A DNA stretch of 50,424 nucleotides from positions 1 to 50,424 of IMG/VR virus record IMGVR_UViG_3300037705_000022; one strand, 5' to 3'. The stretch comes from a virus (lineage: Duplodnaviria > Caudoviricetes). Below, one piece after another: positions 3,288 to 37,375 of this stretch (position 1 is its first letter; every line of letters begins with the position of its first letter). The notes under the pieces are model-generated. The model searched no databases. It saw only the letters and a list, made by a program, of their open reading frames with translations, and was not told the DNA's origin. The position numbers and the translations under genes were made by a program.

Positions 3288-4205
3288 TTAGAAAATGCTG
3301 TCGATTAGTTCGACCAAGTAAGCCGTGTCAACCTTCGACTGATCGCGTTCACGCAATGCGTCAATGACTTGGTTGAAGTAAGCCGTATCAACTCCAGTAA
3401 GCTGTTCTTCCAAGACTTCGACGCTCGACAAGTCCATCGCGTTAAGTTGCATGACCATCTTGAGATATTGGCCAGCCGTAACGTGCCAGCCGCGTTCGAT
3501 AAACTTGCGAGTTCGGATGATCGAGCAAAGCGGGTACTTTGACCCGACGTACCGAAGCTCACGAGCAAGCAATGCCTCCAGTGATTCAGGTCGCAAGCAC
3601 AGTCGGTTGTCCCAGCTTGACCAGTAGTTCATGCAATGCGCGAAGTCGTAGTTCTCGTGGATCTGGTCAGGTTCACCGAAGAATCGCGTGACGAGTTGAA
3701 TGCGGCCTTTCAGCGTGATGGCGTTGGCTGAAAGATAGACCGCTCGATATGGCGGCTTGTCGTCTTTCTCTTCCGCGTCCTGGACGATGTTCAGAATCTT
3801 GGCAACGTACTCCGATGCTTCGCCAGTCTCGGGATTGACGCCCTCAAAATACTGATACTCGTTCGACGACGACTCCGATATCGCGCCGACCGACTTGACG
3901 ACAACGCGAACTCTGTCGCCTAAGTCTTCAACGTAAATCTGAACCGGGTTGCCGTTCTTAAATCTCTTCGGAGGATTCTTTGAAAACTGCGTTGCGTAGT
4001 AAGTGGCAATCGCGAACGTCGCTTCCTTCGTGCGGAAGTACATATCGAAGTCGTTGACGTCTTCTCCGAGAAGCATCGACGCGATTGCTCCGCCAGTGAT
4101 GATCGTATTGTTCTTTGCAAGCTCGCGAACCGCTTCGTCGTCAATGCTCTTGAGCCATGACCGGAACTTGGAATTGCACACTGATTTGACGTTCTTTGCC
4201 TTCAT
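3288..4205 (-). CDS. Putative Pol-beta-superfamily nucleotidyltransferase
   Basis: ITGGAIASMLLGEDVNDFDMYF = hGG..x..DhD signature; later QLV...YDFAHC motif. Confidence 0.65.
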   Translation of the reverse strand: MKAKNVKSVCNSKFRSWLKSIDDEAVRELAKNNTIITGGAIASMLLGEDVNDFDMYFRTKEATFAIATYYATQFSKNPPKRFKNGNPVQIYVEDLGDRVRVVVKSVGAISESSSNEYQYFEGVNPETGEASEYVAKILNIVQDAEEKDDKPPYRAVYLSANAITLKGRIQLVTRFFGEPDQIHENYDFAHCMNYWSSWDNRLCLRPESLEALLARELRYVGSKYPLCSIIRTRKFIERGWHVTAGQYLKMVMQLNAMDLSSVEVLEEQLTGVDTAYFNQVIDALRERDQSKVDTAYLVELIDSIF

Positions 4206-4283
4206 CGTTTCCCTTTCGTGTATTCAGGCGGGTGCTGAACACACCCGCCAAGGTCTCCAACAAGTCGACCTACTTACCAAGTT

Positions 4284-5088: not shown

Positions 5089-5355
5089 TCAGATTCGTAC
5101 GGTCTTTGGCGGGACTACCTCGGCACTACTCGCGAACATCACGTTGCCGTGAGTGATTCGCATAGTCCCGCGCTCGTCAATGTCCACTTCTTGACCAGAG
5201 AACATTTCCAGGAACACAGGCCGCTTGAGGAAGAACGTCTGCAAGTTGAGCGTGTTGTATACGGTCGCATCGGGCGGCAGAGATTCAATTGCTCTCCTTA
5301 AATCGTCGAGCCGCTCAAGCGACTTTACTTGCGTGTGGTGTCTTTCAGTTTCCAT
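5089..5355 (-). CDS. Hypothetical protein
   Basis: ORF in operon orientation; likely start METERH. Confidence 0.5.
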   Translation of the reverse strand: METERHHTQVKSLERLDDLRRAIESLPPDATVYNTLNLQTFFLKRPVFLEMFSGQEVDIDERGTMRITHGNVMFASSAEVVPPKTVRI

Positions 5356-5521
5356 ACAGTGACTCCGAAACGCAGCCGACATATACTCCGACTGCTAGGG
5401 TTAGAATTGGGACTGTGATTTGTAACGCGGTGAGTACCATCTCAATCGCTCCCTGGTCCGTGCTTTCCATCGCTGTAGTAACGGTCGACTAGCTCTTCGT
5501 AGGTGAGGAATTCGTCACGCA

Positions 5522-5680
5522 TCAGGCAGCCTCCTTGAGTTCACCGCGACGAATCTTCACTTCCTTGGGTGCTTCGATTGCAACGTGAACCCGACCACCT
5601 TTGATCTTCGTGATCGTAATGGTCACGTCGTTTCCGAGTTGAATCTTCTCATTCACCTTGCGGGATAAAATCAGAGACAT
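5522..5680 (-). CDS. csrA: CsrA/RsmA-family RNA-binding translational regulator (52 aa, below the ORF-track cutoff)
   Basis: MSLILSRKVNEKIQLGNDVTITITKIKGGRVHVAIEAPKEVKIRRGELKEAA; AAGGAGG RBS. Confidence 0.92.
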   Translation of the reverse strand: MSLILSRKVNEKIQLGNDVTITITKIKGGRVHVAIEAPKEVKIRRGELKEAA

Positions 5681-5711
5681 ATTCAAACCTCCTTGTTTGG
5701 TTAGCGGTGAG

Positions 5712-5873
5712 TTACTTGCTGTTTTTGCCGAAAGACAAACCAGCCAGCTTGCGAACGATACCGTAGCCGCGGTAGAACTTTTTTCGCTGTCGTTCTGTGT
5801 CGATCTTGTCAGGATCGATGCCGTGTTCGCGAGCTTCCTGCTGAGCCTTCAATATTGCCTGTTCGTAGTTCAT
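5712..5873 (-). CDS. Small hypothetical protein (MNYEQAILK...)
   Basis: GAAAGGGA RBS before the ATG at 5873. Confidence 0.55.
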   Translation of the reverse strand: MNYEQAILKAQQEAREHGIDPDKIDTERQRKKFYRGYGIVRKLAGLSFGKNSK

Positions 5874-5886
5874 GCGATTCCCTTTC

Positions 5887-6198
5887 TTAGCGGTAAATGT
5901 TCCGTCTCTGCGTAATGTCGTTGATCGGACTAATCGGCTTCGCATCAGGTGGCCGAGTCGCTCGTGTCGCTCGGTCCCTGTCGTCGCGGTGTGCGTTCTC
6001 TGAAATCCAATCGTGCGCGCCGTTGCTGCTAGCCAGTGTCCGATGTGTTTCGTTGCACACGATCTGACAGTCGGCACCGATTCGGAACTCACCACGAGTC
6101 CAACGGTACGTCGGCGTGCGGTTCAGGTAATCTCTCGGCTTCGATTCTCGTTCGTTGCGTTCCATCGCTTGTTTGTTCTCCCGTCCCAGCGTCCGCAT
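5887..6198 (-). CDS. Hypothetical protein (start uncertain, probably MERNER)
   Basis: ORF track; GGGAGA RBS upstream of the internal ATG. Confidence 0.45.
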   Translation of the reverse strand: MRTLGRENKQAMERNERESKPRDYLNRTPTYRWTRGEFRIGADCQIVCNETHRTLASSNGAHDWISENAHRDDRDRATRATRPPDAKPISPINDITQRRNIYR

Positions 6199-6258
6199 CG
6201 TGCCTAGCTGGGCTTACTCCTATGGGCTCGCGTCGTGCGGGCCGAACTCCGTGATTCA

Positions 6259-6516
6259 CTACTGCCTTCCAAACAACACATCCGCCACGGCCACGATGTA
6301 CATCACGAGATATGCTGTCCGCGCGTCGCTGTCGCACAACACGTCGATCACGACCGGCGACCAGCGGCGTCCACCACTCCGCAGGCAGGCAGACATCACT
6401 GCCGCGTTCGGCAGGACAGCGACTCCGGCGAATGCTGCGTCGACAACGCGAGCGAATGATGGGCGATTGCTGTAATCGGCGTGGTTGATTGTTAGTGTCT
6501 TCGTCATCGTTTTCAT
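6259..6516 (-). CDS. Repeat-array cassette gene 6, orphan (85 aa)
   Basis: Start embedded in repeat copy 1. Confidence 0.7.
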   Translation of the reverse strand: MKTMTKTLTINHADYSNRPSFARVVDAAFAGVAVLPNAAVMSACLRSGGRRWSPVVIDVLCDSDARTAYLVMYIVAVADVLFGRQ

Positions 6517-6573
6517 TCCTTCAATGGGGCCGCGGGGTGCGGCAGTGGGTTGATTCGCTCCGGGGGACGGTGA

Positions 6574-6840
6574 CTAGGCAGGTATCAACCCCTTGCGGAG
6601 TAGCTCAGCGGTCAATCCATTGATCGCTCGCGGGTTGCTGACAGCCCGCAGAAACTGTCCGTTGTACACAGAGCACGACTCCGCTGCCTTCTCAATCGCA
6701 TCCTGTTCTGTTTCCGTCTCTACGATGGCAACCAGCTTATCCAGTCCGCTCTCAAACGTGCTCTTTGGGTTCCTAGCGCGGCCGACACTGGATTGATTAG
6801 CAGCATTCCATCCGCGTCGAATAACGTAAAATGTTGTCAT
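6574..6840 (-). CDS. Repeat-array cassette gene 5, orphan (MTTFYVIRRGW..., 88 aa)
   Basis: ATG is the last codon of repeat copy 2. Confidence 0.75.
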   Translation of the reverse strand: MTTFYVIRRGWNAANQSSVGRARNPKSTFESGLDKLVAIVETETEQDAIEKAAESCSVYNGQFLRAVSNPRAINGLTAELLRKGLIPA

Positions 6841-6887
6841 CGTTTCATTCCTTTCAATGGGGCCGCGTTGCGGCGGGTGGGTGGTGG

Positions 6888-7502
6888 CTAGGCCCATGAC
6901 GCAACTTCGGATTGCGGCTCAGCCCCGCAATCACAGCACGCGCACGTTCCGCCGGCACGGCGAATGGTGTCGACGTCCTCCTGAGTCATTCCGATCGTCG
7001 GAGTGCCACCGTCGCCAAATCTCGACACAACACACGTCGGGCACAGGAATAATGGCCGATAGAAACTCAATCGGTCCCAGACGTGTACTTTCGCTCCGGG
7101 GGACGGTGCCTGCTCAGCGTCTAGGTACCAATAGCCGTCGCTGCCGAGCGTGCAGCCGCACACCGGGCACTCGTCGCCAGCGGTGTGTTGCGAATCGTCC
7201 GCTGTAGCTCGTCCGTCACCGTCTCTGTGCGTGCATTTGGTTGCGTTCGTTTCGTTCTCCTTGGGGCAGGTGGGTGCCATCTCGACTGTCGCAGGTGCCC
7301 CGCGAAACCAAACCGCCAACGGATCGTTCCAGATTCGCAGGAATGCTCCTGCGTCGTCGCGGCAGTGATCTACCTCACCGTGTCGGTGCATGCCGGATTT
7401 TGCTGCCTCCATCTCTTGTGGGCAGCTCCACGCTTGCCCTCCGAACTCTAATGCCAGTCGTTCTGACAAGACTGGTTGGTCGTTAGTCTCCATCGTCTTC
7501 AT
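6888..7502 (-). CDS. Repeat-array cassette gene 4, Cys-rich (CPVC, CPTC, CACCDC), apparently a fusion of cassettes
   Basis: Starts in repeat copy 3; contains an internal relic repeat. Confidence 0.65.
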   Translation of the reverse strand: MKTMETNDQPVLSERLALEFGGQAWSCPQEMEAAKSGMHRHGEVDHCRDDAGAFLRIWNDPLAVWFRGAPATVEMAPTCPKENETNATKCTHRDGDGRATADDSQHTAGDECPVCGCTLGSDGYWYLDAEQAPSPGAKVHVWDRLSFYRPLFLCPTCVVSRFGDGGTPTIGMTQEDVDTIRRAGGTCACCDCGAEPQSEVASWA

Positions 7503-7549
7503 TCTCCTTGGGGCCGCGTTCTGCGGCAGGTGGTGGTGATATCGAGACA

Positions 7550-7774
7550 CTAGCAATGCACGGCAATCCATTGTGCTGCGTCATCGCTCGTGACACGTCG
7601 AAATACCTCGCGTGGGTCGTCGTGGTACATATTGCACCCAGCCGGCATGTCCACCCGGTTCCCCCACCCCTCGACCAATCGGCCGTCTGTAATCAGTCCG
7701 CGATCGGTCAGGATGGCGATCATTTTTCGGATCTGGGAAAAAGTTGCCTCTTGGGTTGCATTCATCGGTTTCAT
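7550..7774 (-). CDS. Repeat-array cassette gene 3, orphan (74 aa)
   Basis: Starts in repeat copy 4 with an AAGGAG RBS. Confidence 0.75.
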   Translation of the reverse strand: MKPMNATQEATFSQIRKMIAILTDRGLITDGRLVEGWGNRVDMPAGCNMYHDDPREVFRRVTSDDAAQWIAVHC

Positions 7775-7812
7775 TCTCCTTGGGGCCGCGCTATGCGGCA
7801 GGTGGTGGTGAT

Positions 7813-8226
7813 CTAGCGAAACAAGTCAGCCAATTTGCGGAGCGGCGAATCCGCGACGATATCGCCGGTCCCAACTGTCCCTAGTCGTCGCTCGGGGCCT
7901 TTGGCGAGACATTCGCCGCAGACATGGAGCTCAGACCAGATCGAGCCGGCGGTCTGATCGCCGTCCCACTCAGCGATAACGTACGGGCGCTCGACCAACT
8001 CTCGCCGCACTCCCTCGCGGGCGAGTTGGACGTATACCTGACTCAGATCGTCATCGCCGTCGATGGCCGCGGCGAAAATCTCTGGCCACGGCGTGATTGT
8101 CTGGCCATGGCGGACGCCGCGCGGCGTCAGGTCGACGATCATGAGCCTTCCATCGATACGGATTTCGGAACGCGGTACGCGACAGTCCGTGGCCAGCATC
8201 GCGACGCGAGTTGTTACCGTTTTCAT
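7813..8226 (-). CDS. Repeat-array cassette gene 2, orphan (137 aa)
   Basis: ATG is the last codon of repeat copy 5. Confidence 0.75.
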   Translation of the reverse strand: MKTVTTRVAMLATDCRVPRSEIRIDGRLMIVDLTPRGVRHGQTITPWPEIFAAAIDGDDDLSQVYVQLAREGVRRELVERPYVIAEWDGDQTAGSIWSELHVCGECLAKGPERRLGTVGTGDIVADSPLRKLADLFR

Positions 8227-8277
8227 CGTTTCATTCCTTTCAATGGGGCCGCGTTGCGGCGGGTGGGTGGTGGATGG

Positions 8278-8472
8278 CTAATACCCGCGAGTCTCGCGGC
8301 TGATCTGATTCGCGACGTCGATTGCGTCGCCGGTGCTGTGCTCGTGTTTGGTGATCAGGTGTCTGATGAGGTTGAATCGCGACAGGTATTTTTTGTCGCA
8401 CAGGCAGCACGCGAGCGGCTTCCGCTCAGCGTTTCCGCACCTGGTTTTAAGATCTGTCTTGTTTTTGGTCAT
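8278..8472 (-). CDS. Small classical C2H2 zinc-finger protein (64 aa), first gene of the repeat-array operon
   Basis: CCLC-DKK-Y-LSRFN-L-IR-H-LITK-H fits C-x2-C-x3-[FY]-x5-L-x2-H-x4-H; GAAAGGGA RBS. Confidence 0.8.
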   Translation of the reverse strand: MTKNKTDLKTRCGNAERKPLACCLCDKKYLSRFNLIRHLITKHEHSTGDAIDVANQISRETRGY

Positions 8473-8508
8473 CGTTTCCCTTTCGTGGTTTCGTTCTCGT
8501 CTGTATGA

Positions 8509-8537
8509 ATAATAGACTCTATCGACATTGCTGTCCA
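8509..8537 (-). promoter_or_regulatory. Sigma70-like promoter of the array operon
   Basis: TGGACA (8537-8532), 17 bp, TATTAT (8514-8509). Confidence 0.65.
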
Positions 8538-8595
8538 CCCCTAAACACCGATTCGAGCAAAGATTTTCGGAAGTTTTCTGGTAGCCGAGAATGCC

Positions 8596-8624
8596 TTGAC
8601 CGAAAGCTTTACGGGGTGTACACT
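8596..8624 (+). promoter_or_regulatory. Divergent sigma70-like promoter giving a probably leaderless transcript
   Basis: TTGACC, 17 bp, TACACT, then 6 nt to the ATG at 8631; no RBS. Confidence 0.65.
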
Positions 8625-8630
8625 TACGGC

Positions 8631-8936
8631 ATGGACGAAAACCAAGACAAACCGCGAATCGGCAGACCGCCCGCAGAAAATCCGCTGCGAAAGAGGTTTT
8701 TTCGCTGCACGGATGCGGAGTGGGAATTGATCGAGATGGCTGCGAAAGACTGCAATCGGAGCCGCGCAATCCGAGACGTAATGGTTCGGTGGGCGCGGCG
8801 GCATACACCGGGGCGAAAACGGAAAGCGAGAATAGGAGCTACGGCACCGGCGATTTATCCGGGCATGCCCCGCAGCACTCCACGCCGTCGAGTCGCTTGC
8901 CAATCGTGCATTCGCCGTGGATCGCGCACGCGGTGA
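8631..8936 (+). CDS. Ribbon-helix-helix/CopG-like DNA-binding protein, putative repressor
   Basis: GRPPAENPLRKRFFRCTDAEWELIEMAAKDCNRSRAIRD: GRP motif, beta strand, two helices; the only non-IS plus-strand gene I can support. Confidence 0.65.
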   Translation: MDENQDKPRIGRPPAENPLRKRFFRCTDAEWELIEMAAKDCNRSRAIRDVMVRWARRHTPGRKRKARIGATAPAIYPGMPRSTPRRRVACQSCIRRGSRTR

Positions 8937-9168
8937 CTTTGACTTGCACGCTACCGCTGCATGATTCGCAGCCGGCCCGACGCAATTCGTCGCCGCGATG
9001 AACGCACGCCATGTCTGGCTGTCTGCCTGTGACACTATCACATATCGCCACGCCTTCAACGTGATCCCTGATCGTACATTCTCCATGCACTCGACAGCTA
9101 AATACCTTGATCCAATGCAGTCCACTTTTTACTAGTCCTGCGATTTCGCACCGATGAGGGCATGTCAT
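8839..9168 (-). CDS. Cys-rich protein with a duplicated KV..C..HGECTI motif, last gene of the tail operon
   Basis: KVFSCRVHGECTI and KVTACAIHGECTI. Confidence 0.7.
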   Translation of the reverse strand: MTCPHRCEIAGLVKSGLHWIKVFSCRVHGECTIRDHVEGVAICDSVTGRQPDMACVHRGDELRRAGCESCSGSVQVKVTACAIHGECTIGKRLDGVECCGACPDKSPVP

Positions 9169-10451
9169 GGGTTCGGTCCCGCGCAGTAATATGCACTAAT
9201 GCTCTCTACCCGGTGCTGGGTAGCGTCTGCCCCAGCCGCAGCACGAACACGTTCACCGTTGAACGTGGATGCAATAGTCGCGGATAGATACGGCGGGTCA
9301 GTATGAACGCTCAAGCTCCCGATTACTGCGTAGACTGACGTCCCTCCAACCCATAGAGACATACCACCGGACACCGTACCGAGTCCAGGTCCATTAATAA
9401 GATCGCCGGTGTCTACCAGGGAACCGCCGACGTACAGATCGCCCCGCCACTGAAATAGGGACGGAGAAAATTGAGTTCTCTTGCCGTACCATTTCACTTC
9501 GATATTGTCACCGTCCGCAAACAATGAAGACAGGTGATACCATGTCCCGACATTCATCGCTGCCGCGCCAACAACGTTCGCACCTACCACGTATCCGTAC
9601 GCTCGATTCTCTTCCGTGATGGATATTCCGAGAGGAATGACGTTTGTTCCCTCTGCAGGAGATGCATTTGGGTTACCGGTGTAAGTTGCATCAGAAGTGT
9701 ACTCGTCAACATTCCATCGGGTTAAATCCCACTCGCCGATTTGCGATCCAATTATTCTCGGTATGGCAGGAATGCCTTCATGTGTACGCATTTGGCAATC
9801 CACCTCCAGAACGCACGCAACGGCATCTGTCTCAAGTCGATCGATAACGACCTCTTGAATGCGAACAACATCAGTCAGGGGATCGGCAATTATTGAAAGA
9901 CTATCCGGAGTCCAGTCGATTGCAATTCGCGTTCCAATGCCCCTAAACGCATACGTAGAGTCTGTATTTACTAGCTCGACTTCAACTCGCAAGTAGGTCG
10001 ATGTCCAAATGCAATGTAGAAGTATATTGTGATCCAAATCGTCAGCCGCCACCAAATCGCTGCGTTGCGGAAGCGTAGTGTATTGCTCGACTCCATCGAC
10101 CTTAATGCTGAGTGTGCTGGCGTCATCAACTCCATCTTCTCCGAACGTGATCTTCATTACCGCTGAATGCGAGCCGTTATAAATCTTCAGTGATACCTCT
10201 TGGTCTACAAGTGTTCCGCGTATGCGAAGTGCTGCGTAGCCTTGCGCCGGAATTGGGTCACCATCATAAATCAGCTCGCCAGCCGCTGTGCATGTGATAA
10301 AGGTATTGGACGGTTCAGACGCAGGCTCATCGAGTAACCACGTCCCGCTGTCGACAATCCAATCGTTTAGCTCGTCTGCGACGTCCCACGTATAGACATT
10401 GCAGACTTGCGTACAGCAATTGCAGCCAGGAGAGTGCTTATTGATGCTCAT
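9165..10451 (-). CDS. Putative tail tip / receptor-binding protein
   Basis: Distal position in the tail operon, beta-rich, N-terminal PGCNCC; start MSINKH coupled by ATGA. Confidence 0.55.
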   Translation of the reverse strand: MSINKHSPGCNCCTQVCNVYTWDVADELNDWIVDSGTWLLDEPASEPSNTFITCTAAGELIYDGDPIPAQGYAALRIRGTLVDQEVSLKIYNGSHSAVMKITFGEDGVDDASTLSIKVDGVEQYTTLPQRSDLVAADDLDHNILLHCIWTSTYLRVEVELVNTDSTYAFRGIGTRIAIDWTPDSLSIIADPLTDVVRIQEVVIDRLETDAVACVLEVDCQMRTHEGIPAIPRIIGSQIGEWDLTRWNVDEYTSDATYTGNPNASPAEGTNVIPLGISITEENRAYGYVVGANVVGAAAMNVGTWYHLSSLFADGDNIEVKWYGKRTQFSPSLFQWRGDLYVGGSLVDTGDLINGPGLGTVSGGMSLWVGGTSVYAVIGSLSVHTDPPYLSATIASTFNGERVRAAAGADATQHRVESISAYYCAGPNP

Positions 10452-27312: not shown

Positions 27313-28500
27313 TCACGCCTCTCGCCCCAGGAACGAGATAAAGGTACACGTCGACGCGTCTGGAATTGTGATTACATCGCTCAGCCCTGTGCCTCGTGTG
27401 CGCTTGTATTTAGCCAATCGAGCGACAGTGACTTCGATCACGCCGTCATTATCCGCAGTCAGCGTGATCGGCTTCGCGTCATACGATCGACCGGTATCAC
27501 TCGTTGGCACGGCAACCATCTGCAGCGTGACAATTGCCCCAGGCTCGGCCGCGAGCAGCTCGTCATAGCACGTCATGCTGAGCGTCGATTGTGCTGGGTT
27601 AGCCGCGGGCGTGATTACAATCGCCGTCATACTGTACGTCGCTGCTTCCGTGCCGTTGACGACCAGCGTTGTGCCTGCGTACGAGTAGCCTGATTTACTG
27701 ATCGATACCGCGTAAGTCGCATCATCGAGATTAAACACAGCCACGCCGCTTGCGTTCGTCAATGAGGCAAACGTGTTGATCCCCTCTGTCATTCGGACAA
27801 TCGCGTTTTGCAGCGCAGCCGCCCCGTCGTTGACCGTAACCGTGATCGTGCGTGCCCCGGCTCCGGCTCCTACGTTTAGATCGTTAACAACGCTAGTGAG
27901 GCCCGTAAGAATGGCCCCTACTTCCGTGTCGATGTATCCTGCGATTGTACTCTGATTCGCAACGGTTGCATCACCAACTGTCGCCGGAAACGTCGCCGCA
28001 AGAAATCCTGTTGGCTGCGCGTAGCTGGCCATTCGTGTCGTAATGGCCGCGTCGAGTCGAGCGAGTAGCGTATCAAGATCCAACCCACCAGCGTCACTGA
28101 TCGGCAATCCACCAGCGGCATCGGCGGCAGCATTTGGAGCGTACGCGACTTGGTTGTTCACATCAACCAGATTGACCTGTCGTGAAACCGTGCGGCACCC
28201 CGCAGCCTTGAGCGTGATCACAACCTCGAACGCACCAGTTGCAAACGCACCATCGGGCACATCGCACCGATACACGCCAGGCTGATTGGTATCGTCCACC
28301 AGGATAAACCCGCCGCTCGAATAGGCTGCGGATGCTGACGCCAGCGTGGCCATCGTGATCGCAACCCGTGCTCCTCTTGAGCGTGAGTAGGAGCCTGTCA
28401 CGTCGGTGTAGACTATACCAGTCTTGGGAAGCCCTGTTGTCGAACCTACGAACTCCAAAAACAGGCTGTTGCTAGTGGCACCTTTGAAAATATCGGTCAT
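27313..28500 (-). CDS. Probable virion accessory protein with prealbumin/Ig-like beta domains
   Basis: Thr/Ala-rich; LQNAIV...TNASG.A.F.L..ATY.V.ISKSGY pattern. Confidence 0.55.
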   Translation of the reverse strand: MTDIFKGATSNSLFLEFVGSTTGLPKTGIVYTDVTGSYSRSRGARVAITMATLASASAAYSSGGFILVDDTNQPGVYRCDVPDGAFATGAFEVVITLKAAGCRTVSRQVNLVDVNNQVAYAPNAAADAAGGLPISDAGGLDLDTLLARLDAAITTRMASYAQPTGFLAATFPATVGDATVANQSTIAGYIDTEVGAILTGLTSVVNDLNVGAGAGARTITVTVNDGAAALQNAIVRMTEGINTFASLTNASGVAVFNLDDATYAVSISKSGYSYAGTTLVVNGTEAATYSMTAIVITPAANPAQSTLSMTCYDELLAAEPGAIVTLQMVAVPTSDTGRSYDAKPITLTADNDGVIEVTVARLAKYKRTRGTGLSDVITIPDASTCTFISFLGREA

Positions 28501-29618
28501 TGAAAACCCCCGCTGAGATTACCGCCGCCGATCATACCGCCACTACCACCGCCACCAGGATCGTAGAATGGAACATTGGTGTTTGTTGTGTCTGTCCCTG
28601 CCCCTAATGATTTTGGATAACTGCCAGACTCGGCGGAAATAATTACGATAGCAGGGGCGGTTGACGAGACTCCAAAAGCACCAGCCGTATTGCCAGTCGC
28701 CAAGGCGATAAACGCAATGCCGGCGGCAGAAACAATAACGCCGTGGGCAGCGGAGGTAGTGCCTCCAGTGGCACTTCCATTAAACTTACCTCCACCGCTG
28801 ACCTGTGCTCCATACGCATTACTGGCACTACCGCCGGTGGCGTTGCCATTCATTATGCCGCCCGACGCTAGAGACACCGCCACCTCTCCACCCACGGTCC
28901 CGCCGGTGGCGTTGCCATTCATTATGCCGCCGTTAGTGACTAGACAGCCGAAGGCTCCGGAAACTCCAGCATGGGCGTTTCCGTTCATTATCCCGCCCGC
29001 CGAAATTTGCACTCCATGTGCATTTCCTACGCTGCCTCCTGTAGCGTCGCCATTCAAGGCACCGCCAGATAATAGATTCACACCGTGAGCACTGCTGGCA
29101 CTGCCGCCCGTCGCGTCGCCGTTCATTACTCCACCATTAATGACAGCACCGTAAGCACCACCGCCATTGCCACCCGTAGCGTTTCCATTTAGTGCCCCGC
29201 CGACGTTGGCGTTGGTCCCAGCTCGGCTGAATCCGTTACCACCAGTCGAATTTCCGGTATGCGTACTTGAGATATCAAGAACTGTGCCATATCGCGTATT
29301 AGTTGTATCACTCCCGAAACTATCTCCAACCTGTTCCGCACCGCCGCTCAAGGTGAGGCAGTTAGTCGTTCCTCCATACGAATCAGCAGTCACAACCACA
29401 GCCGTTGAAGCTGTGAATGATCCACCAGCAACTGCCGTTGTACCAACGCGGGTTTTCAAATCTGCAACTGTGATGTTCATATCAATCGTGATCGCTAAAC
29501 CATTCGCCAGAACAGAGTCTCCAGCCTGCGGGGCCATTCCATACGCAGAGCCATCCGCGTCGTTGTTCCACGTCCGCGTTGACCATGCTCCTGCCGCTGT
29601 TGGGTAGACGGTTGCCAC
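28497..29618 (-). CDS. Gly-rich repeat protein (putative beta-solenoid fibre/adhesin)
   Basis: Tandem ~24-aa units GGx[ML]NG[ND]ATGG. Confidence 0.65.
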   Translation of the reverse strand: MATVYPTAAGAWSTRTWNNDADGSAYGMAPQAGDSVLANGLAITIDMNITVADLKTRVGTTAVAGGSFTASTAVVVTADSYGGTTNCLTLSGGAEQVGDSFGSDTTNTRYGTVLDISSTHTGNSTGGNGFSRAGTNANVGGALNGNATGGNGGGAYGAVINGGVMNGDATGGSASSAHGVNLLSGGALNGDATGGSVGNAHGVQISAGGIMNGNAHAGVSGAFGCLVTNGGIMNGNATGGTVGGEVAVSLASGGIMNGNATGGSASNAYGAQVSGGGKFNGSATGGTTSAAHGVIVSAAGIAFIALATGNTAGAFGVSSTAPAIVIISAESGSYPKSLGAGTDTTNTNVPFYDPGGGGSGGMIGGGNLSGGFQ

Positions 29619-34687: not shown

Positions 34688-34816
34688 TTAATGCCGTTCC
34701 TTTCTTTCGTAGCGTGCTCCGCTTTTACTTGTTTCTCCGCCAATGACTCACCGTCAACGTAGACGTGACCTAGAATCCTACCGAACGAAAACACGTCGTC
34801 TAATCGCCTTACGTTG
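34684..34816 (-). pseudogene. 3' fragment of a thermonuclease (SNase)-like gene interrupted by IS1595; 5' fragment at 37266-37372
   Basis: Removing the IS and one TSD rejoins ...AVLVVPLDNV|RRLDDVFSFGRILGHVYVDGESLAE in frame; the N-terminus is also damaged. Confidence 0.65.
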
Positions 34817-34875
34817 GGCACTGACTGATTAGACGCACTACCGGGAAATAATTTACGGAATTGCTTATTAGTCAC

Positions 34876-34903
34876 TTGACGCACTACCGATAGTTGCTAA
34901 AAT
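34876..34903 (+). promoter_or_regulatory. IS-internal promoter overlapping a third copy of the TIR core
   Basis: TTGACG, 16 bp, extended -10 TGcTAAAAT; GACGCACTACC at 34878-34888. Confidence 0.6.
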
Positions 34904-34988
34904 GAGGATGTAACGCGGCAACGAGCCGCAACTCGCCGACTGAGTGAGTCGGAGCCGTGGCCCGCGAAGCCACGAAAGGAGAAAGAAA

Positions 34989-35756
34989 ATGCGATACGAA
35001 CTGAATGGTGCGAACTTGGTTTTTCACGCGGAATCCGGCGATCCTTGGAAGGGGGTTCAATCCGCACAGAGAATCGAAACAATTTCCGGCGTGGAGTGCG
35101 TAACGTGCTTCGGCACTGTCCGCAACACCGACCTGAAAAAGGATGTCCGGCTGTGCGTACGGATCGACAACAAGCCTGGATTGCCAGAACTCGTTGCGGC
35201 TTGGACTGCCGCGATTAAAGCCGAGGAATCTCGAAAAGTGGCTGAGGCGACGGCCGAGCTGGACGGCATCACCAGCGGTGCGACTCCGATTACTGTGTAC
35301 TATCACGACGGTGAATACCTCAGTGGTCACACTCTCCACGGTCCAGCCGCGAACATGCTGGTTAAAATCGGCGTTGCCAAGGACGTCAGTGGCTGGGGAG
35401 TTCACGTCGATTCCAAGCTCGTCGAAGCTCTCGGTACTACCTTCACGTATCCGCAGGCTCGCGAGTTTGCATCGCCGATCATTGAGAAGATCGAAGCCGC
35501 AAAGGCCAAGGCTGCCGAGCACGATGCCGCGATCGAATTGCGCCGATCCGAGTTGCTTGCAAGCGGCAAGCGGCTTGCGACACCAAAGCAACTCGGTGTC
35601 ATCTACCGCGCCAAGAAGGATTGGTTCGACTTGTTCGACGGCGCGACCAGCTACGGCATGTATGGGCCATCGGACGATCAGCTTGCGACGATGACTATCG
35701 ATGAAGCTTCCGCTTTGGTTGGTCAGATCATGTCCGCGAGAAAGGCGGGTGAGTAA
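34989..35756 (+). CDS. IS passenger 1, hypothetical protein (255 aa)
   Basis: GAAAGGAG RBS; C-terminal ATPKQ...MT..EAS.L motif. Confidence 0.8.
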   Translation: MRYELNGANLVFHAESGDPWKGVQSAQRIETISGVECVTCFGTVRNTDLKKDVRLCVRIDNKPGLPELVAAWTAAIKAEESRKVAEATAELDGITSGATPITVYYHDGEYLSGHTLHGPAANMLVKIGVAKDVSGWGVHVDSKLVEALGTTFTYPQAREFASPIIEKIEAAKAKAAEHDAAIELRRSELLASGKRLATPKQLGVIYRAKKDWFDLFDGATSYGMYGPSDDQLATMTIDEASALVGQIMSARKAGE

Positions 35757-36026
35757 ATGAGATCGTACTATCATGCCGGTCGCGTGCTTGGACAAATGCA
35801 ATCGATGTTCGGCGGACGAATGACGCCAGTTGCGCTCGGCAACTCGGTAGCTCTGGCCAACCGCATTCCGGTTGTTCTTCGGCACCTTTGGCCGGAGGCG
35901 ATGCGAAGCGAAGACTTCGTTCTCCTGCTTTCGGAAGGTGAGCTGCCGAGCACGCCCCCGAACGGCGAGCAACAGGCGGACGTGTGGCTCGGCTTTTATC
36001 ACCGGAAACACGAACTTCGCAAGTGA
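35757..36026 (+). CDS. IS passenger 2, small helical protein resembling the Cas8c C-terminus (Cas11c)
   Basis: YYHAGRV...LP......EQQADVWLGFYHRK compared with the Cas8c pattern Y..GRLF...P....EEQ..F.LGYYHQ. Confidence 0.55.
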   Translation: MRSYYHAGRVLGQMQSMFGGRMTPVALGNSVALANRIPVVLRHLWPEAMRSEDFVLLLSEGELPSTPPNGEQQADVWLGFYHRKHELRK

Positions 36027-36107
36027 GCCTTTCGCCATCGCCGCGCCGGTGTCGCAACCGGCCCCGCAAGGGACAAGCGGCGATGGCGGCTTTTTGAAAG
36101 CGCAACA

Positions 36108-37073
36108 ATGCAACTCCCCAAAACACTCCTCGAAGCCGTCCGTCATTTCTCTGACCTGGACGTGTGCAACGAGTATCTCGGCTCGATCAAGTGGCCCGGT
36201 GGAAAGCCGATCTGCCCGAAGTGCGGTGGCGACTCGGTCGGCTATCTCGTCGCCCGCAAGAAGCTCAAGTGCAACTCCAAGGCGTGCCAAAAACAGTTTA
36301 GCTACAAGGTCGACACGATCTTTGAAGACTCGCCGCTTGGGCTCGACAAGTGGCTCGTCGCGGTTTGGTGCGTCGCAAATTGCAAGAACGGCATCAGCAG
36401 TCACGAACTCGGCAGGTCGATCGGAGTCACCCAGAAGACGGCATGGTTCATGCTCCATCGCATTCGCGTGGCGATGGACATCGAAAGCGGCGACAAGCAC
36501 GATGGGGATGCGGAAGCCGACACGACCTACATCGGCGGCGCGGCGAAGAACATGCACCACAAGCGGCGAAAGGCGAAGATTACGGGCCGTGGTGGCGTCG
36601 ACAAGATCGCTGTGCATGGCGTGCTGAGGCGAGCGACGGGCGGACATCACAGCACGATCAGCGCGAAGGTCATTACGACAGAGAACGCCGAAAAGCTGAT
36701 GGCCGAAGTTCGGCGACAAGTCAAATACGGTGCGAACGTCTACACCGACTCGGCATCGAGCTACGGCGACTTGGCTTTGACTCACCGTCACAAGATGGTC
36801 GACCATTCGAAGTGTTTCGTCGTTGGCACTGTCCACGTCAACGGCGTGGAAAACTTCTGGTCGCTTCTGAAGCGAACGCTCAAAGGCACCTACGTTGCCG
36901 TCGCGCCGTACCATCTTTTCCGCTACGTCGTCGAGCAGGTTTTTCGATTCGACAACAGGCAAACGAATGACGCAGGACGATTCAACATTGTGATGCACAG
37001 ATGCGTTGGCAAACGGTTGACGTGGCGAATGCTGTGCGGCATTGGCGATGCTGGTTTCATGGGGATCAACTAG
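36108..37073 (+). CDS. IS1595-family DDE transposase
   Basis: KWPGG..CPKCG Zn ribbon; GISSHEL...GVTQKTAWFMLHRIR; EADTTYIGG, VYTD, HVNGVENFWSLLKR. Confidence 0.96.
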   Translation: MQLPKTLLEAVRHFSDLDVCNEYLGSIKWPGGKPICPKCGGDSVGYLVARKKLKCNSKACQKQFSYKVDTIFEDSPLGLDKWLVAVWCVANCKNGISSHELGRSIGVTQKTAWFMLHRIRVAMDIESGDKHDGDAEADTTYIGGAAKNMHHKRRKAKITGRGGVDKIAVHGVLRRATGGHHSTISAKVITTENAEKLMAEVRRQVKYGANVYTDSASSYGDLALTHRHKMVDHSKCFVVGTVHVNGVENFWSLLKRTLKGTYVAVAPYHLFRYVVEQVFRFDNRQTNDAGRFNIVMHRCVGKRLTWRMLCGIGDAGFMGIN

Positions 37074-37086
37074 GAGGATCAAGGCG

Positions 37087-37212
37087 ATGGGAAAGCCGAA
37101 AGAATGGCAAGCGTTTGACACACTTGCCAAGCAGTTAGTGAAGGTGCCGAAAGACAAAGTCGACGCCAAAATTGCGGCGACTAAGAAGCGGCGAGTGAAA
37201 AAGAAAAAGTGA
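37087..37212 (+). CDS. Small basic IS-associated protein (MGKPKEWQAFDTLAKQLVKVPK..., 41 aa)
   Basis: AGGAGG RBS; lies between the transposase and the right TIR. Confidence 0.6.
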   Translation: MGKPKEWQAFDTLAKQLVKVPKDKVDAKIAATKKRRVKKKK

Positions 37213-37375
37213 GTTAGCATGTTTCGTGCCAATGGAAATGGTAGTGCGTCTAATCAGTCAGTGCCTTACGTTGTCGAGTGGAACAACCAAGACGGCCTGC
37301 TTGCCTTCGTGCGGCTTGAGGTTGTCGCGGCTCTCAACACCTCCGTTGTCTCGCAGTTCCGAGGAGCTTCATTTG

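What the first reader, a model, noticed from the sequence alone, without database searches (positions are those of the whole stretch)
6259..8472. Gene array punctuated by CRISPR-repeat-like hairpins, with whole genes in place of spacers
Seen: five consecutive orphan genes each start at the end of a ~50-bp repeat. On the coding strand it reads C/A-rich tract, GCCGC-loop-GCGGC, CCC, then ATTGAA(A)G (copies at 6505, 6838, 8224) or AAGGAG (7491, 7763), running into RBS and ATG. The stem is invariant while the loop differs (AAC, ACCCC, AGAAC, ATAGC), which suggests selection on RNA structure. Established: Cas6-processed class 1 repeats are a hairpin followed by an 8-nt ATTGAA(A/G)N handle; from memory, type I-G repeats often end GGCCCCATTGAAGC; phage solitary repeat units can act as RNA anti-CRISPRs (Racrs). 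Inference: host Cas6/Csb2 may cut this mRNA, titrating Cas proteins and/or releasing monocistronic messages, so the operon could combine RNA decoys with small anti-defence proteins. The repeats could also act as recombination sites for cassette exchange. The stem is shorter than in typical I-G repeats, so chance resemblance remains possible.
Basis: partly seen in the sequence, partly recalled or inferred. Interest (0 to 1): 0.92.

Follow-up and report, generated by a model that had tools for sequence, protein, structure and literature searches.

The report
Hairpin leaders punctuating phage gene cassettes
Five small genes of an uncultured phage each start behind the same short hairpin and ribosome-binding sequence, which likely serves as a reusable start signal and swap point for gene cassettes; its partial match to type I-G CRISPR repeats is real but may be coincidental.

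Summary
Observation confirmed: five copies of GCCGC-loop-GCGGC-CCC (5 vs 0.01 by chance) each lie between a TAG stop and an ATG, in a promoter-led small-gene operon of a circular phage. The host is probably Planctomycetota (inferred). The genes are not all orphans. The array has turned over: the 201-aa gene is a fusion of three separate small-protein families, with a decayed sixth leader at one junction. The CRISPR likeness is real. Three copies share 17 exact bases with the 3' end of type I-G repeats, in the Csb2 cutting register. However, identity is only 20-22 of 36, the stem has 5 bp rather than 6-8, two copies lack the handle, and ATTGAAAGGA is a common ribosome-binding context. Related phage leaders keep the hairpin but vary the linker. 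Best reading (0.58): a portable stop-hairpin-RBS leader, akin to SAS/PeSL elements. Csb2 binding or cutting stays open (0.27), supported by a 29-base exact match in another phage and by I-G-like units in phage leaders. The scan noted CRISPR-like leaders of other types on other DNA, but not this element.

The parts
8631..8936 (+). Divergent Arc-like (ribbon-helix-helix) regulator, likely repressor of the operon promoter
   Evidence: phrog_6506 Arc-like repressor, E 3.4e-4; own promoter-like site 8596-8624; repression is inference
8509..8537 (-). Sigma-70-type promoter-like site heading the operon (TGGACA-17-TATTAT)
   Evidence: 10 of 12 consensus matches (3 sites found vs 1.7 in shuffles, so not significant alone); two short inverted repeats overlap it (sequence)
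8278..8472 (-). g0, 64-aa first gene, C2H2-like motif, plain RBS without hairpin
   Evidence: PF13894 E 0.0013, below cut-off; leader
8227..8277 (-). Leader 1: C/A-rich run, hairpin 8248-8260, CCC, ATTGAAAGGA, spacer to ATG
   Evidence: identical to leader 4 over 51 bp
7813..8226 (-). g1, 137 aa, no relative found
   Evidence: no hit
7766..7812 (-). Leader 2: hairpin 7785-7799, CCC, AAGGAG (no ATTGAA handle)
7550..7765 (-). g2, 71 aa, no family match; not searched in the large protein collections
7494..7549 (-). Leader 3: hairpin 7513-7527, CCC, AAGGAG (no handle)
6888..7493 (-). g3, 201 aa, in-frame fusion of three small-protein families A (aa 5-64), B (86-130), C (138-201)
   Evidence: 43 homologues: 16 match A, 25 B, 2 C; none carries two segments
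7236..7283 (-). Decayed sixth leader at the A/B junction of g3: hairpin deleted, read through in frame
   Evidence: local alignment score 49.5 against leader 2 plus the start of g2; background maximum 34.5 over 3223 windows
7090..7108 (-). 19-bp direct repeat, copy 1, at the B/C junction of g3
   Evidence: exact repeat of 6554-6572
6841..6887 (-). Leader 4: hairpin 6862-6874, CCC, ATTGAAAGGA
6574..6840 (-). g4, 88 aa, conserved small-protein family (GWNAANQ motif), function unknown
   Evidence: 27 homologues; model pLDDT 86; no clear fold match
6554..6572 (-). 19-bp direct repeat, copy 2, in the g4-g5 gap; the two copies flank [family C - leader 4 - g4]
6508..6573 (-). Leader 5: hairpin 6529-6543, CCC, ATTGAAGGA
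6259..6507 (-). g5, 82 aa; one homologue shares the N-terminal part only

Best explanation
The repeat lies between the stop codon of one small gene and the start codon of the next, and likely works as a portable translation leader in what is probably an early phage operon, its identical copies likely doubling as crossover points for gene gain and loss. Shown: five copies with a C/A-rich run, a 5-bp hairpin and a Shine-Dalgarno sequence; a promoter-like site and a divergent Arc-like gene at the head; a decayed sixth copy; a three-gene fusion; a 19-bp direct repeat around one cassette. Inferred: one transcript made right after DNA entry and later repressed by the Arc-like protein. The hairpin folds locally and would screen each ribosome-binding site from upstream coding RNA. 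Recombination between copies would excise or insert cassettes. On this reading the match to type I-G repeats comes from a common GC hairpin, one state of a drifting linker and a common ribosome-binding word, and needs no Cas protein.
For: All five copies sit between a stop and a start, with stem pair probabilities of 0.75-1.0 and Shine-Dalgarno unpaired probabilities of 0.42-0.84. Two of five lack the handle but keep hairpin and Shine-Dalgarno. A g4 homologue found by protein similarity alone (L232/G408) lies in a small-gene array with four hairpin leaders. Their stems differ with pairing kept, one is GCCGC/GCGGC, and none has the CCC-ATTGAA tail. Among viral matches of hairpin plus ATTGAARGR, 22 of 50 precede an ORF, with 18 linker types; CCC occurs in 2, both in one contig. 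In genomes 33 of 60 precede an ORF, and 2 carry the full CCC motif (Thermococcus, Gemmatimonadota). Hairpin-CCC-A...AGGAG without ATTGAA occurs in 39 viral loci, 23 of them before an ORF. Turnover. All 6 operon ORFs end in TAG against 10 of 56 other hand-picked ORFs, suggesting the stop travels with the unit. Csb2 was found in only 19 of 301 Planctomycetota genomes.
Against: A 29-base exact match covering hairpin, CCC and ATTGAAAGGA occurs twice in a phage fragment (L042/G407) that shares no detectable protein with the window. A metagenome contig (L012) has the same tail. Such conservation of the linker is more than a plain ribosome-binding site needs. Most comparison leaders were found with patterns that demand the GCCGC/GCGGC stem, so their homology is not shown. 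The g4 homologues in L233-L235 have no such leader (L236 and L237 not scanned). Five capsid-protein relatives show no clustered copies. No alternative cassette junction was seen in three runs. No translation data exist.
Confidence: 0.58

Rival explanations
1. The leaders are shortened type I-G CRISPR repeats, by descent or mimicry. Host Csb2 would bind the hairpin-CCCC and cut before ATTGAA, releasing single-gene messages that keep their Shine-Dalgarno sequence and soaking up Csb2 or Cascade subunits as an RNA decoy.
For: 10 of 11 array repeats in hand fold into a 6-8 bp stem followed by 4+8 unpaired bases; three window copies share 17 exact bases with such repeats and keep the outer CCGC/GCGG pairs. 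Csb2 cuts 4 nt 3' of the hairpin and binds the hairpin product, not the handle, which is the part all five copies keep. Another Csb2 was reported to tolerate altered stems. The I-G tail occurs in 105 distinct viral stretches, 93 solitary. L044, whose phage shares a portal homologue with the window, has GCCGC-CCC-GCGGC with a true handle. In L316 a short-stem I-G-like pair runs into AGGAG and ATG. The linker is conserved in L042 and L012. Ribozyme-punctuated phage arrays show that cutting such messages occurs.
Against: Best identity to an array repeat is 20-22 of 36. The T-rich 5' arm and inner stem are absent. No copy has the terminal C, 2 of 5 lack the handle, and there is no spacer. Short stems are not enriched among solitary viral tails (5 of 93 vs 3.3 expected, p 0.24), whereas full-length stems are (17 vs 3.3). 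Only 1 of 105 tails is followed directly by SD and ATG. The full motif arises in chromosomes. Host and its CRISPR type are unknown; 226 spacers gave no match.
Confidence: 0.27
2. The hairpin is a recognition site for another factor, either a phage-encoded translational repressor that shuts the early genes off together (candidates: the CsrA homologue at 5522-5686, or g0) or a host ribonuclease that cuts in the single-stranded run before it.
For: The phage encodes CsrA (PF02599, E 7e-19) and all five leaders hold A-N-GGA (sequence; the CsrA motif is recalled). Aca proteins are reported to bind leader RNA motifs. In phage G410 the same-looking hairpin follows type II hammerheads.
Against: Loops differ in length and sequence and hold no GGA. 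Any AGGA-type Shine-Dalgarno fits the CsrA motif. The window has no hammerhead match. The upstream run is C/A-rich rather than A/U-rich.
Confidence: 0.12

Closest known systems
Start Associated Sequences (SAS/ESAS) of cluster K mycobacteriophages and cluster EF Microbacterium phages (PMC7302621, PMC4351075; passages read)
   Same: Unusually conserved repeat at the ribosome-binding position of a subset of genes, with a linked upstream element; role untested.
   Different: Here the upstream element is a fixed 5-bp hairpin, the copies are consecutive in one operon and fill the whole stop-to-start gap, and the 3' part resembles a CRISPR repeat end.
PeSL cassettes of T4-like phages RB49/phi1 (PMC2839356; passages read)
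   Same: Repeated intergenic stem-loop plus Shine-Dalgarno plus ATG flanking non-essential small ORFs; signs of gene gain and loss at the repeats.
   Different: PeSLs carry their own promoter and act as terminators. Here one promoter-like site heads the operon and no terminator-like site was called on the coding strand. Mini-circles were not seen.
Type I-G CRISPR repeat and Csb2 processing site (bioRxiv 2022.08.08.503147; passages read); solitary repeat units / Racrs (PMC10651486; passages read)
   Same: Outer CCGC/GCGG pairs, CCCC linker and ATTGAA in the same register; up to 17 exact bases; located downstream of a promoter in a phage, among small genes.
   Different: 5-bp stem, no T-rich 5' arm, handle merged with the Shine-Dalgarno or missing, 20-22 of 36 identity, five copies used as translation leaders.
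Hammerhead-punctuated prophage gene arrays (PMC3088659; passages read)
   Same: Repeated structured RNA between variable small genes of one transcript; phage G410 has such ribozymes, two of them followed by a GCCGC/GCGGC hairpin and a Shine-Dalgarno.
   Different: The window has no ribozyme core, so any cutting would need a protein.

Membership tests
Type I-G CRISPR repeat | Outer CCGC/GCGG stem followed by a 4-nt linker and ATTGAA | tested here: met
   3 of 5 copies; 17 exact bases shared with array repeats
Type I-G CRISPR repeat | 36-nt unit with 6-8 bp stem and pyrimidine-rich 5' arm | tested here: not met
   5-bp stem; best ungapped identity 20-22 of 36 against 11 array repeats
Type I-G CRISPR repeat | Complete 8-nt handle ATTGAAGC | tested here: not met
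   ATTGAAAG twice, ATTGAAGG once, absent twice
Type I-G CRISPR repeat | Spacers of about 36 nt and cas genes nearby | tested here: not met
   Copies are 272-653 bp apart with ORFs between; no cas family among 65 ORFs scanned
Solitary repeat unit / Racr | At least 90% identity over at least 90% of a known repeat (SRUFinder) | tested here: not met
   Criterion; identities. Only 11 I-G repeats were compared, not the 17,823-repeat set
Solitary repeat unit / Racr | Bound or cut by the cognate Cas6-type enzyme and inhibits interference | not testable with these tools
   needs Csb2 assays
Solitary repeat unit / Racr | Host carries the matching CRISPR subtype | tested here: inconclusive
   Host not identified; Csb2 in 19 of 301 Planctomycetota genomes; no spacer match
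SAS/ESAS-type start-associated repeat | Conserved repeat at the ribosome-binding position of a subset of genes, beyond normal RBS conservation | tested here: met
   5 of 62 ORFs listed carry it, all in one operon
SAS/ESAS-type start-associated repeat | Conserved across related phages | tested here: inconclusive
   No close relative found; exact or near copies in L042 and L012; no cluster in five capsid relatives
PeSL cassette | Each repeat holds a sigma-70 promoter and a terminator stem-loop | tested here: not met
   One minus-strand promoter-like site, no minus-strand terminator-like site in 5300-9300
PeSL cassette | Gene gain and loss by crossover between repeats | tested here: inconclusive
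   Fusion, decayed copy and 19-bp repeat point to turnover; no joint or alternative junction in three runs
Hammerhead ribozyme array | CUGAnGA and GAAA core with three stems | tested here: not met
   No Rfam match in the window; no core near the leaders
acr-aca locus | Known Acr protein beside an Aca-type regulator | tested here: inconclusive
   Arc-like regulator present (an RHH-type Aca14 is described); no array protein matched a known Acr by sequence, and for g4 Acr folds appear only at Z 3.0 or less

The most novel reading that the evidence does not exclude
A phage has built shortened type I-G CRISPR repeats into the ribosome-binding leaders of its early genes. The host's Csb2 then cuts the polycistronic message into translatable single-gene units while being titrated away from crRNA maturation: one element serving as RNA anti-CRISPR, processing site and cassette crossover point.
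Probability: 0.25. Interest if true: 0.85.

Novelty: new variant of a known kind. Interest (0 to 1): 0.45.

Why it matters
Even on the plain reading, this is a clear case of an accessory operon assembled from interchangeable small genes behind one repeated stop-to-start leader, with the decay and fusion of cassettes visible in the sequence. It marks several uncharacterised small-protein families as candidates for anti-defence screens in a host group with few studied phages. If Csb2 does act on the leaders, it would extend RNA anti-CRISPRs to degenerate repeats that current 90%-identity searches miss. It would also give a natural case of Cas6-type cutting used to format mRNA. One in vitro assay would decide this.

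Tried and rejected
The strict leader pattern gave only chance hits in viral contigs (3 loci) and 1 relevant hit of 32 in metagenomes. blastn of the region and of one copy against 50,697 isolate phages gave only short chance hits. No Rfam family was found. g1 had no relative. g4 was not found in 401 Planctomycetota genomes; its fold searches were uninformative (best Z 5.3), as were the Atlas and PDB sequence searches. Host search: no spacer among 17 weak DNA matches in 401 genomes or among 226 spacers. No RNA holder was listed. No joints or alternative junctions were seen in contigs of three runs; the high depth of the 51-nt contig is not a copy number. A possible seventh decayed copy at 6214-6240 scored below background (28 or less vs 34.5) and is rejected. 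L046 was dropped because its match lies in coding sequence (by eye). TAG read-through as a polyprotein was rejected: only 2 of 5 gaps are in frame (sequence). A lost TAG at the g3 B/C junction was rejected: the Gln there belongs to a motif conserved in family B. The window's Arc-like protein and the L042 NikA-like protein show no pairwise similarity. The L042 promoter next to the leader is by eye only and was not called by the scan. Literature searches for Cas6-cut repeat-like leaders in phage genes, for solitary repeats in 5' UTRs and for type I-G in Planctomycetes phages returned nothing relevant; subscription papers are not covered.
Full report
Setting. The window is a whole virus record with direct terminal repeats. 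It has lambda-like terminase, portal, protease and capsid genes, a tape measure gene, YqaJ and NinG recombination genes, a CsrA homologue and an IS1595 element. It is held by sediment metagenome runs. The host is probably Planctomycetota, by inference only: capsid homologues occur in 8 of 301 Planctomycetota genomes at up to 35% identity (no other phylum was searched). The one organism name among the 120 transposase hits listed is Thermoguttaceae. Isolated phages match the capsid at only 24-26% in the 12 of 23 records listed.

Observation. Five minus-strand copies of GCCGC-loop-GCGGC-CCC-A occur, against 0.01 expected. Each fills the gap between a TAG and an ATG. Three continue with ATTGAA(A)GGA, two with AAGGAG. 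Copies 1 and 4 are identical over 51 bp. The stem is predicted to form in context (pair probabilities 0.75-1.0) and the Shine-Dalgarno is partly open (0.42-0.84), but the leaders fold no better than shuffles. A promoter-like site (8537-8509) precedes a first gene without hairpin, back to back with an Arc-like regulator. A second study holds 7556-8478 without a difference.

The array has turned over. g3 (201 aa) has 43 homologues, which match residues 5-64 (16), 86-130 (25) or 138-201 (2), never two segments (one family-B protein also aligns weakly to segment C with the same residues). At the first junction lies a leader with its hairpin deleted, read in frame; it scores 49.5 against a background maximum of 34.5 in 3223 windows. 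At the second junction lies a 19-bp sequence repeated at 6554-6572, so that [family C - leader 4 - g4] is flanked by direct repeats, as an inserted circle or a duplication would leave it (inference). All 6 operon ORFs end in TAG, against 10 of 56 other ORFs in my hand-picked list. g4 has 27 homologues, g5 one partial homologue. g1 has none found, and g0 and g2 were checked only against family libraries. No joint or alternative junction was seen in three runs.

The CRISPR likeness is real. The 14-mer GCGGCCCCATTGAA occurs in 23 of 301 Planctomycetota genomes, in five of them 7-124 times at array spacing, while the reversed control occurs 3 times in all. The repeats are 36 nt, and Csb1 and Csb2 lie beside 4 of 4 arrays examined, hence type I-G. 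Ten of 11 array repeats fold into a 6-8 bp stem plus 12 unpaired bases. Csb2 is reported to cut 4 nt 3' of a 7-bp hairpin, leaving an 8-nt handle, and to bind the hairpin product but not the handle (bioRxiv 2022.08.08.503147, passages). A second study reports tolerance of stem changes, a need for the 5' arm and a different cut site (bioRxiv 2022.08.19.504415, passages). The window copies keep the outer four pairs and the linker. The longest exact matches are 17, 12, 13, 17 and 17 bases, but identity is 20-22 of 36, far below the 90%/90% rule used to define solitary repeat units (PMC10651486, passages; its supplementary lists were not read). Phages do carry I-G tails: 105 distinct stretches, 93 solitary. 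Full-length stems are enriched among these (17 vs 3.3 expected), short stems are not (5 vs 3.3, p 0.24). L044 has the same short hairpin with a true handle, in a phage sharing a portal homologue. L316 has a short-stem pair whose second unit runs into AGGAG and ATG. These keep the terminal C and a spacer; the window copies have neither.

The likeness can also arise without CRISPR. Hairpin plus ATTGAAAGGA precedes an ORF in 33 of 60 genome matches, and the full motif with CCC does so in a Thermococcus and a Gemmatimonadota genome. In viral contigs 22 of 50 matches precede an ORF, with 18 linker types; CCC appears only in contig G407. Hairpin-CCC-A...AGGAG without ATTGAA occurs in 39 viral loci, 23 before an ORF, several just behind promoter-like sequence by eye. 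The least biased comparison is G408, found through g4 alone. There four small genes have hairpin leaders with differing but paired stems, one of them GCCGC/GCGGC with an upstream run like that of leader 5, and none has the CCC-ATTGAA tail. Three other g4 loci have no such leader (2 of 6 not scanned). In G410 the hairpin follows type II hammerhead ribozymes, once with the tail GAC-ATTGAAAGG and once with GAAAC, the arrangement described for prophage arrays (PMC3088659, passages). Against chance stands the exact 29-base match, twice, in G407, which shares no detectable protein with the window, and the similar leader in L012; a third G407 leader has GA in place of CCC. Csb2 was found in 19 of 301 Planctomycetota genomes, so a leader must work without it unless the host is one of those.

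Mechanism. Most likely (0.58) the unit is a portable translation leader. One early transcript, probably repressed later by the Arc-like protein (an RHH-type Aca is described in bioRxiv 2026.07.27.740549, passages), carries before each gene an unstructured run, a self-contained hairpin and a Shine-Dalgarno sequence. The identical copies would offer crossover points, as shown for PeSLs (PMC2839356, passages). Position, fusion and decay are shown; translation effects and recombination are inferred. Csb2 binding or cutting (0.27) cannot be excluded and could sit on top of the leader role. A site for a phage repressor or a host nuclease (0.12) has little specific support. No array protein resembles a known anti-CRISPR; an anti-defence role rests on position and size only.

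Comparison and verdict. The element works like SAS/ESAS repeats (PMC7302621 and PMC4351075, passages) and partly like PeSLs, but lacks per-copy promoters and terminators. It fails the membership tests for type I-G repeats, solitary repeat units and hammerhead arrays. It also differs from phage CRISPR-like regulatory RNAs, which have a handle and a spacer (bioRxiv 2024.10.29.618823, passages). Searches found no paper on Cas6-cut translation leaders in phages. The scan's notes hold CRISPR-like leaders of other types on other DNA (unchecked) but nothing on this genome or element. Verdict: a real feature, a new variant of start-associated phage repeats, interest 0.45, with a one-in-four chance of a much more interesting reading that one cleavage assay would settle.

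Noticed in passing
L387:19050-19506 and L388 (G410): Small-gene array punctuated by about seven type II hammerhead-like cores (best Rfam score 36.4 bits, gathering 37); two are followed by a GCCGC/GCGGC hairpin and the Shine-Dalgarno.
   Followed up: partly
L316, L441, L442 (G419) and L443 (G421): Phage units made of an I-G repeat 3' half with handle, a spacer-like stretch and a repeat 5' half able to pair back; two run into a Shine-Dalgarno and ATG. G419 has three, G421 two, and G418 has six I-G tails.
   Followed up: partly
L044:2990-3130 (G417): Two I-G-like units 100 bp apart with short hairpins and complete handles, in an intergenic gap of a phage that shares a portal homologue with the window.
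   Followed up: partly
L048:2750-3220: Short cysteine/threonine-rich ORF resembling a RiPP precursor (by eye), then a short-stem I-G-like unit with a UUCG loop, then a tRNA-like sequence.
   Followed up: no
window 5522-5686: Phage-encoded CsrA homologue downstream of the operon, on the same strand.
   Followed up: no
window 34811-37271: IS1595-family element with 32-bp inverted repeats that carries, besides the transposase, a 270-aa passenger ORF (34944-35756) with a hairpin-SD leader of its own.
   Followed up: partly
window 4202-4225 and 8469-8492: The ribosome-binding region of g0 is repeated (22 of 24 bases) before the gene at 3288-4205 (phrog_4400).
   Followed up: no
window 6880-6887, 7531-7538, 7803-7810, 8266-8273: The C/A-rich run of four leaders reads GGTGGTGG on the + strand, resembling Chi-type recombination motifs (recalled); coordinates approximate.
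   Followed up: no
L127:4330-4460: Two-repeat mini-array at the end of a large ORF that may be TnpB/Cas12-like (by eye), upstream of the early region of another phage.
   Followed up: no
L087, L089, L092, L111, L114, L119: Phages with an A-rich run, GCCGC-loop-GCGGC, ACAA or GCAA and ATTGAAAGG before different genes (82-243 aa), a parallel leader family.
   Followed up: no
window 28497-29618: Gly/Asn-rich protein with 22-23-aa tandem repeats (66-69 bp period).
   Followed up: no
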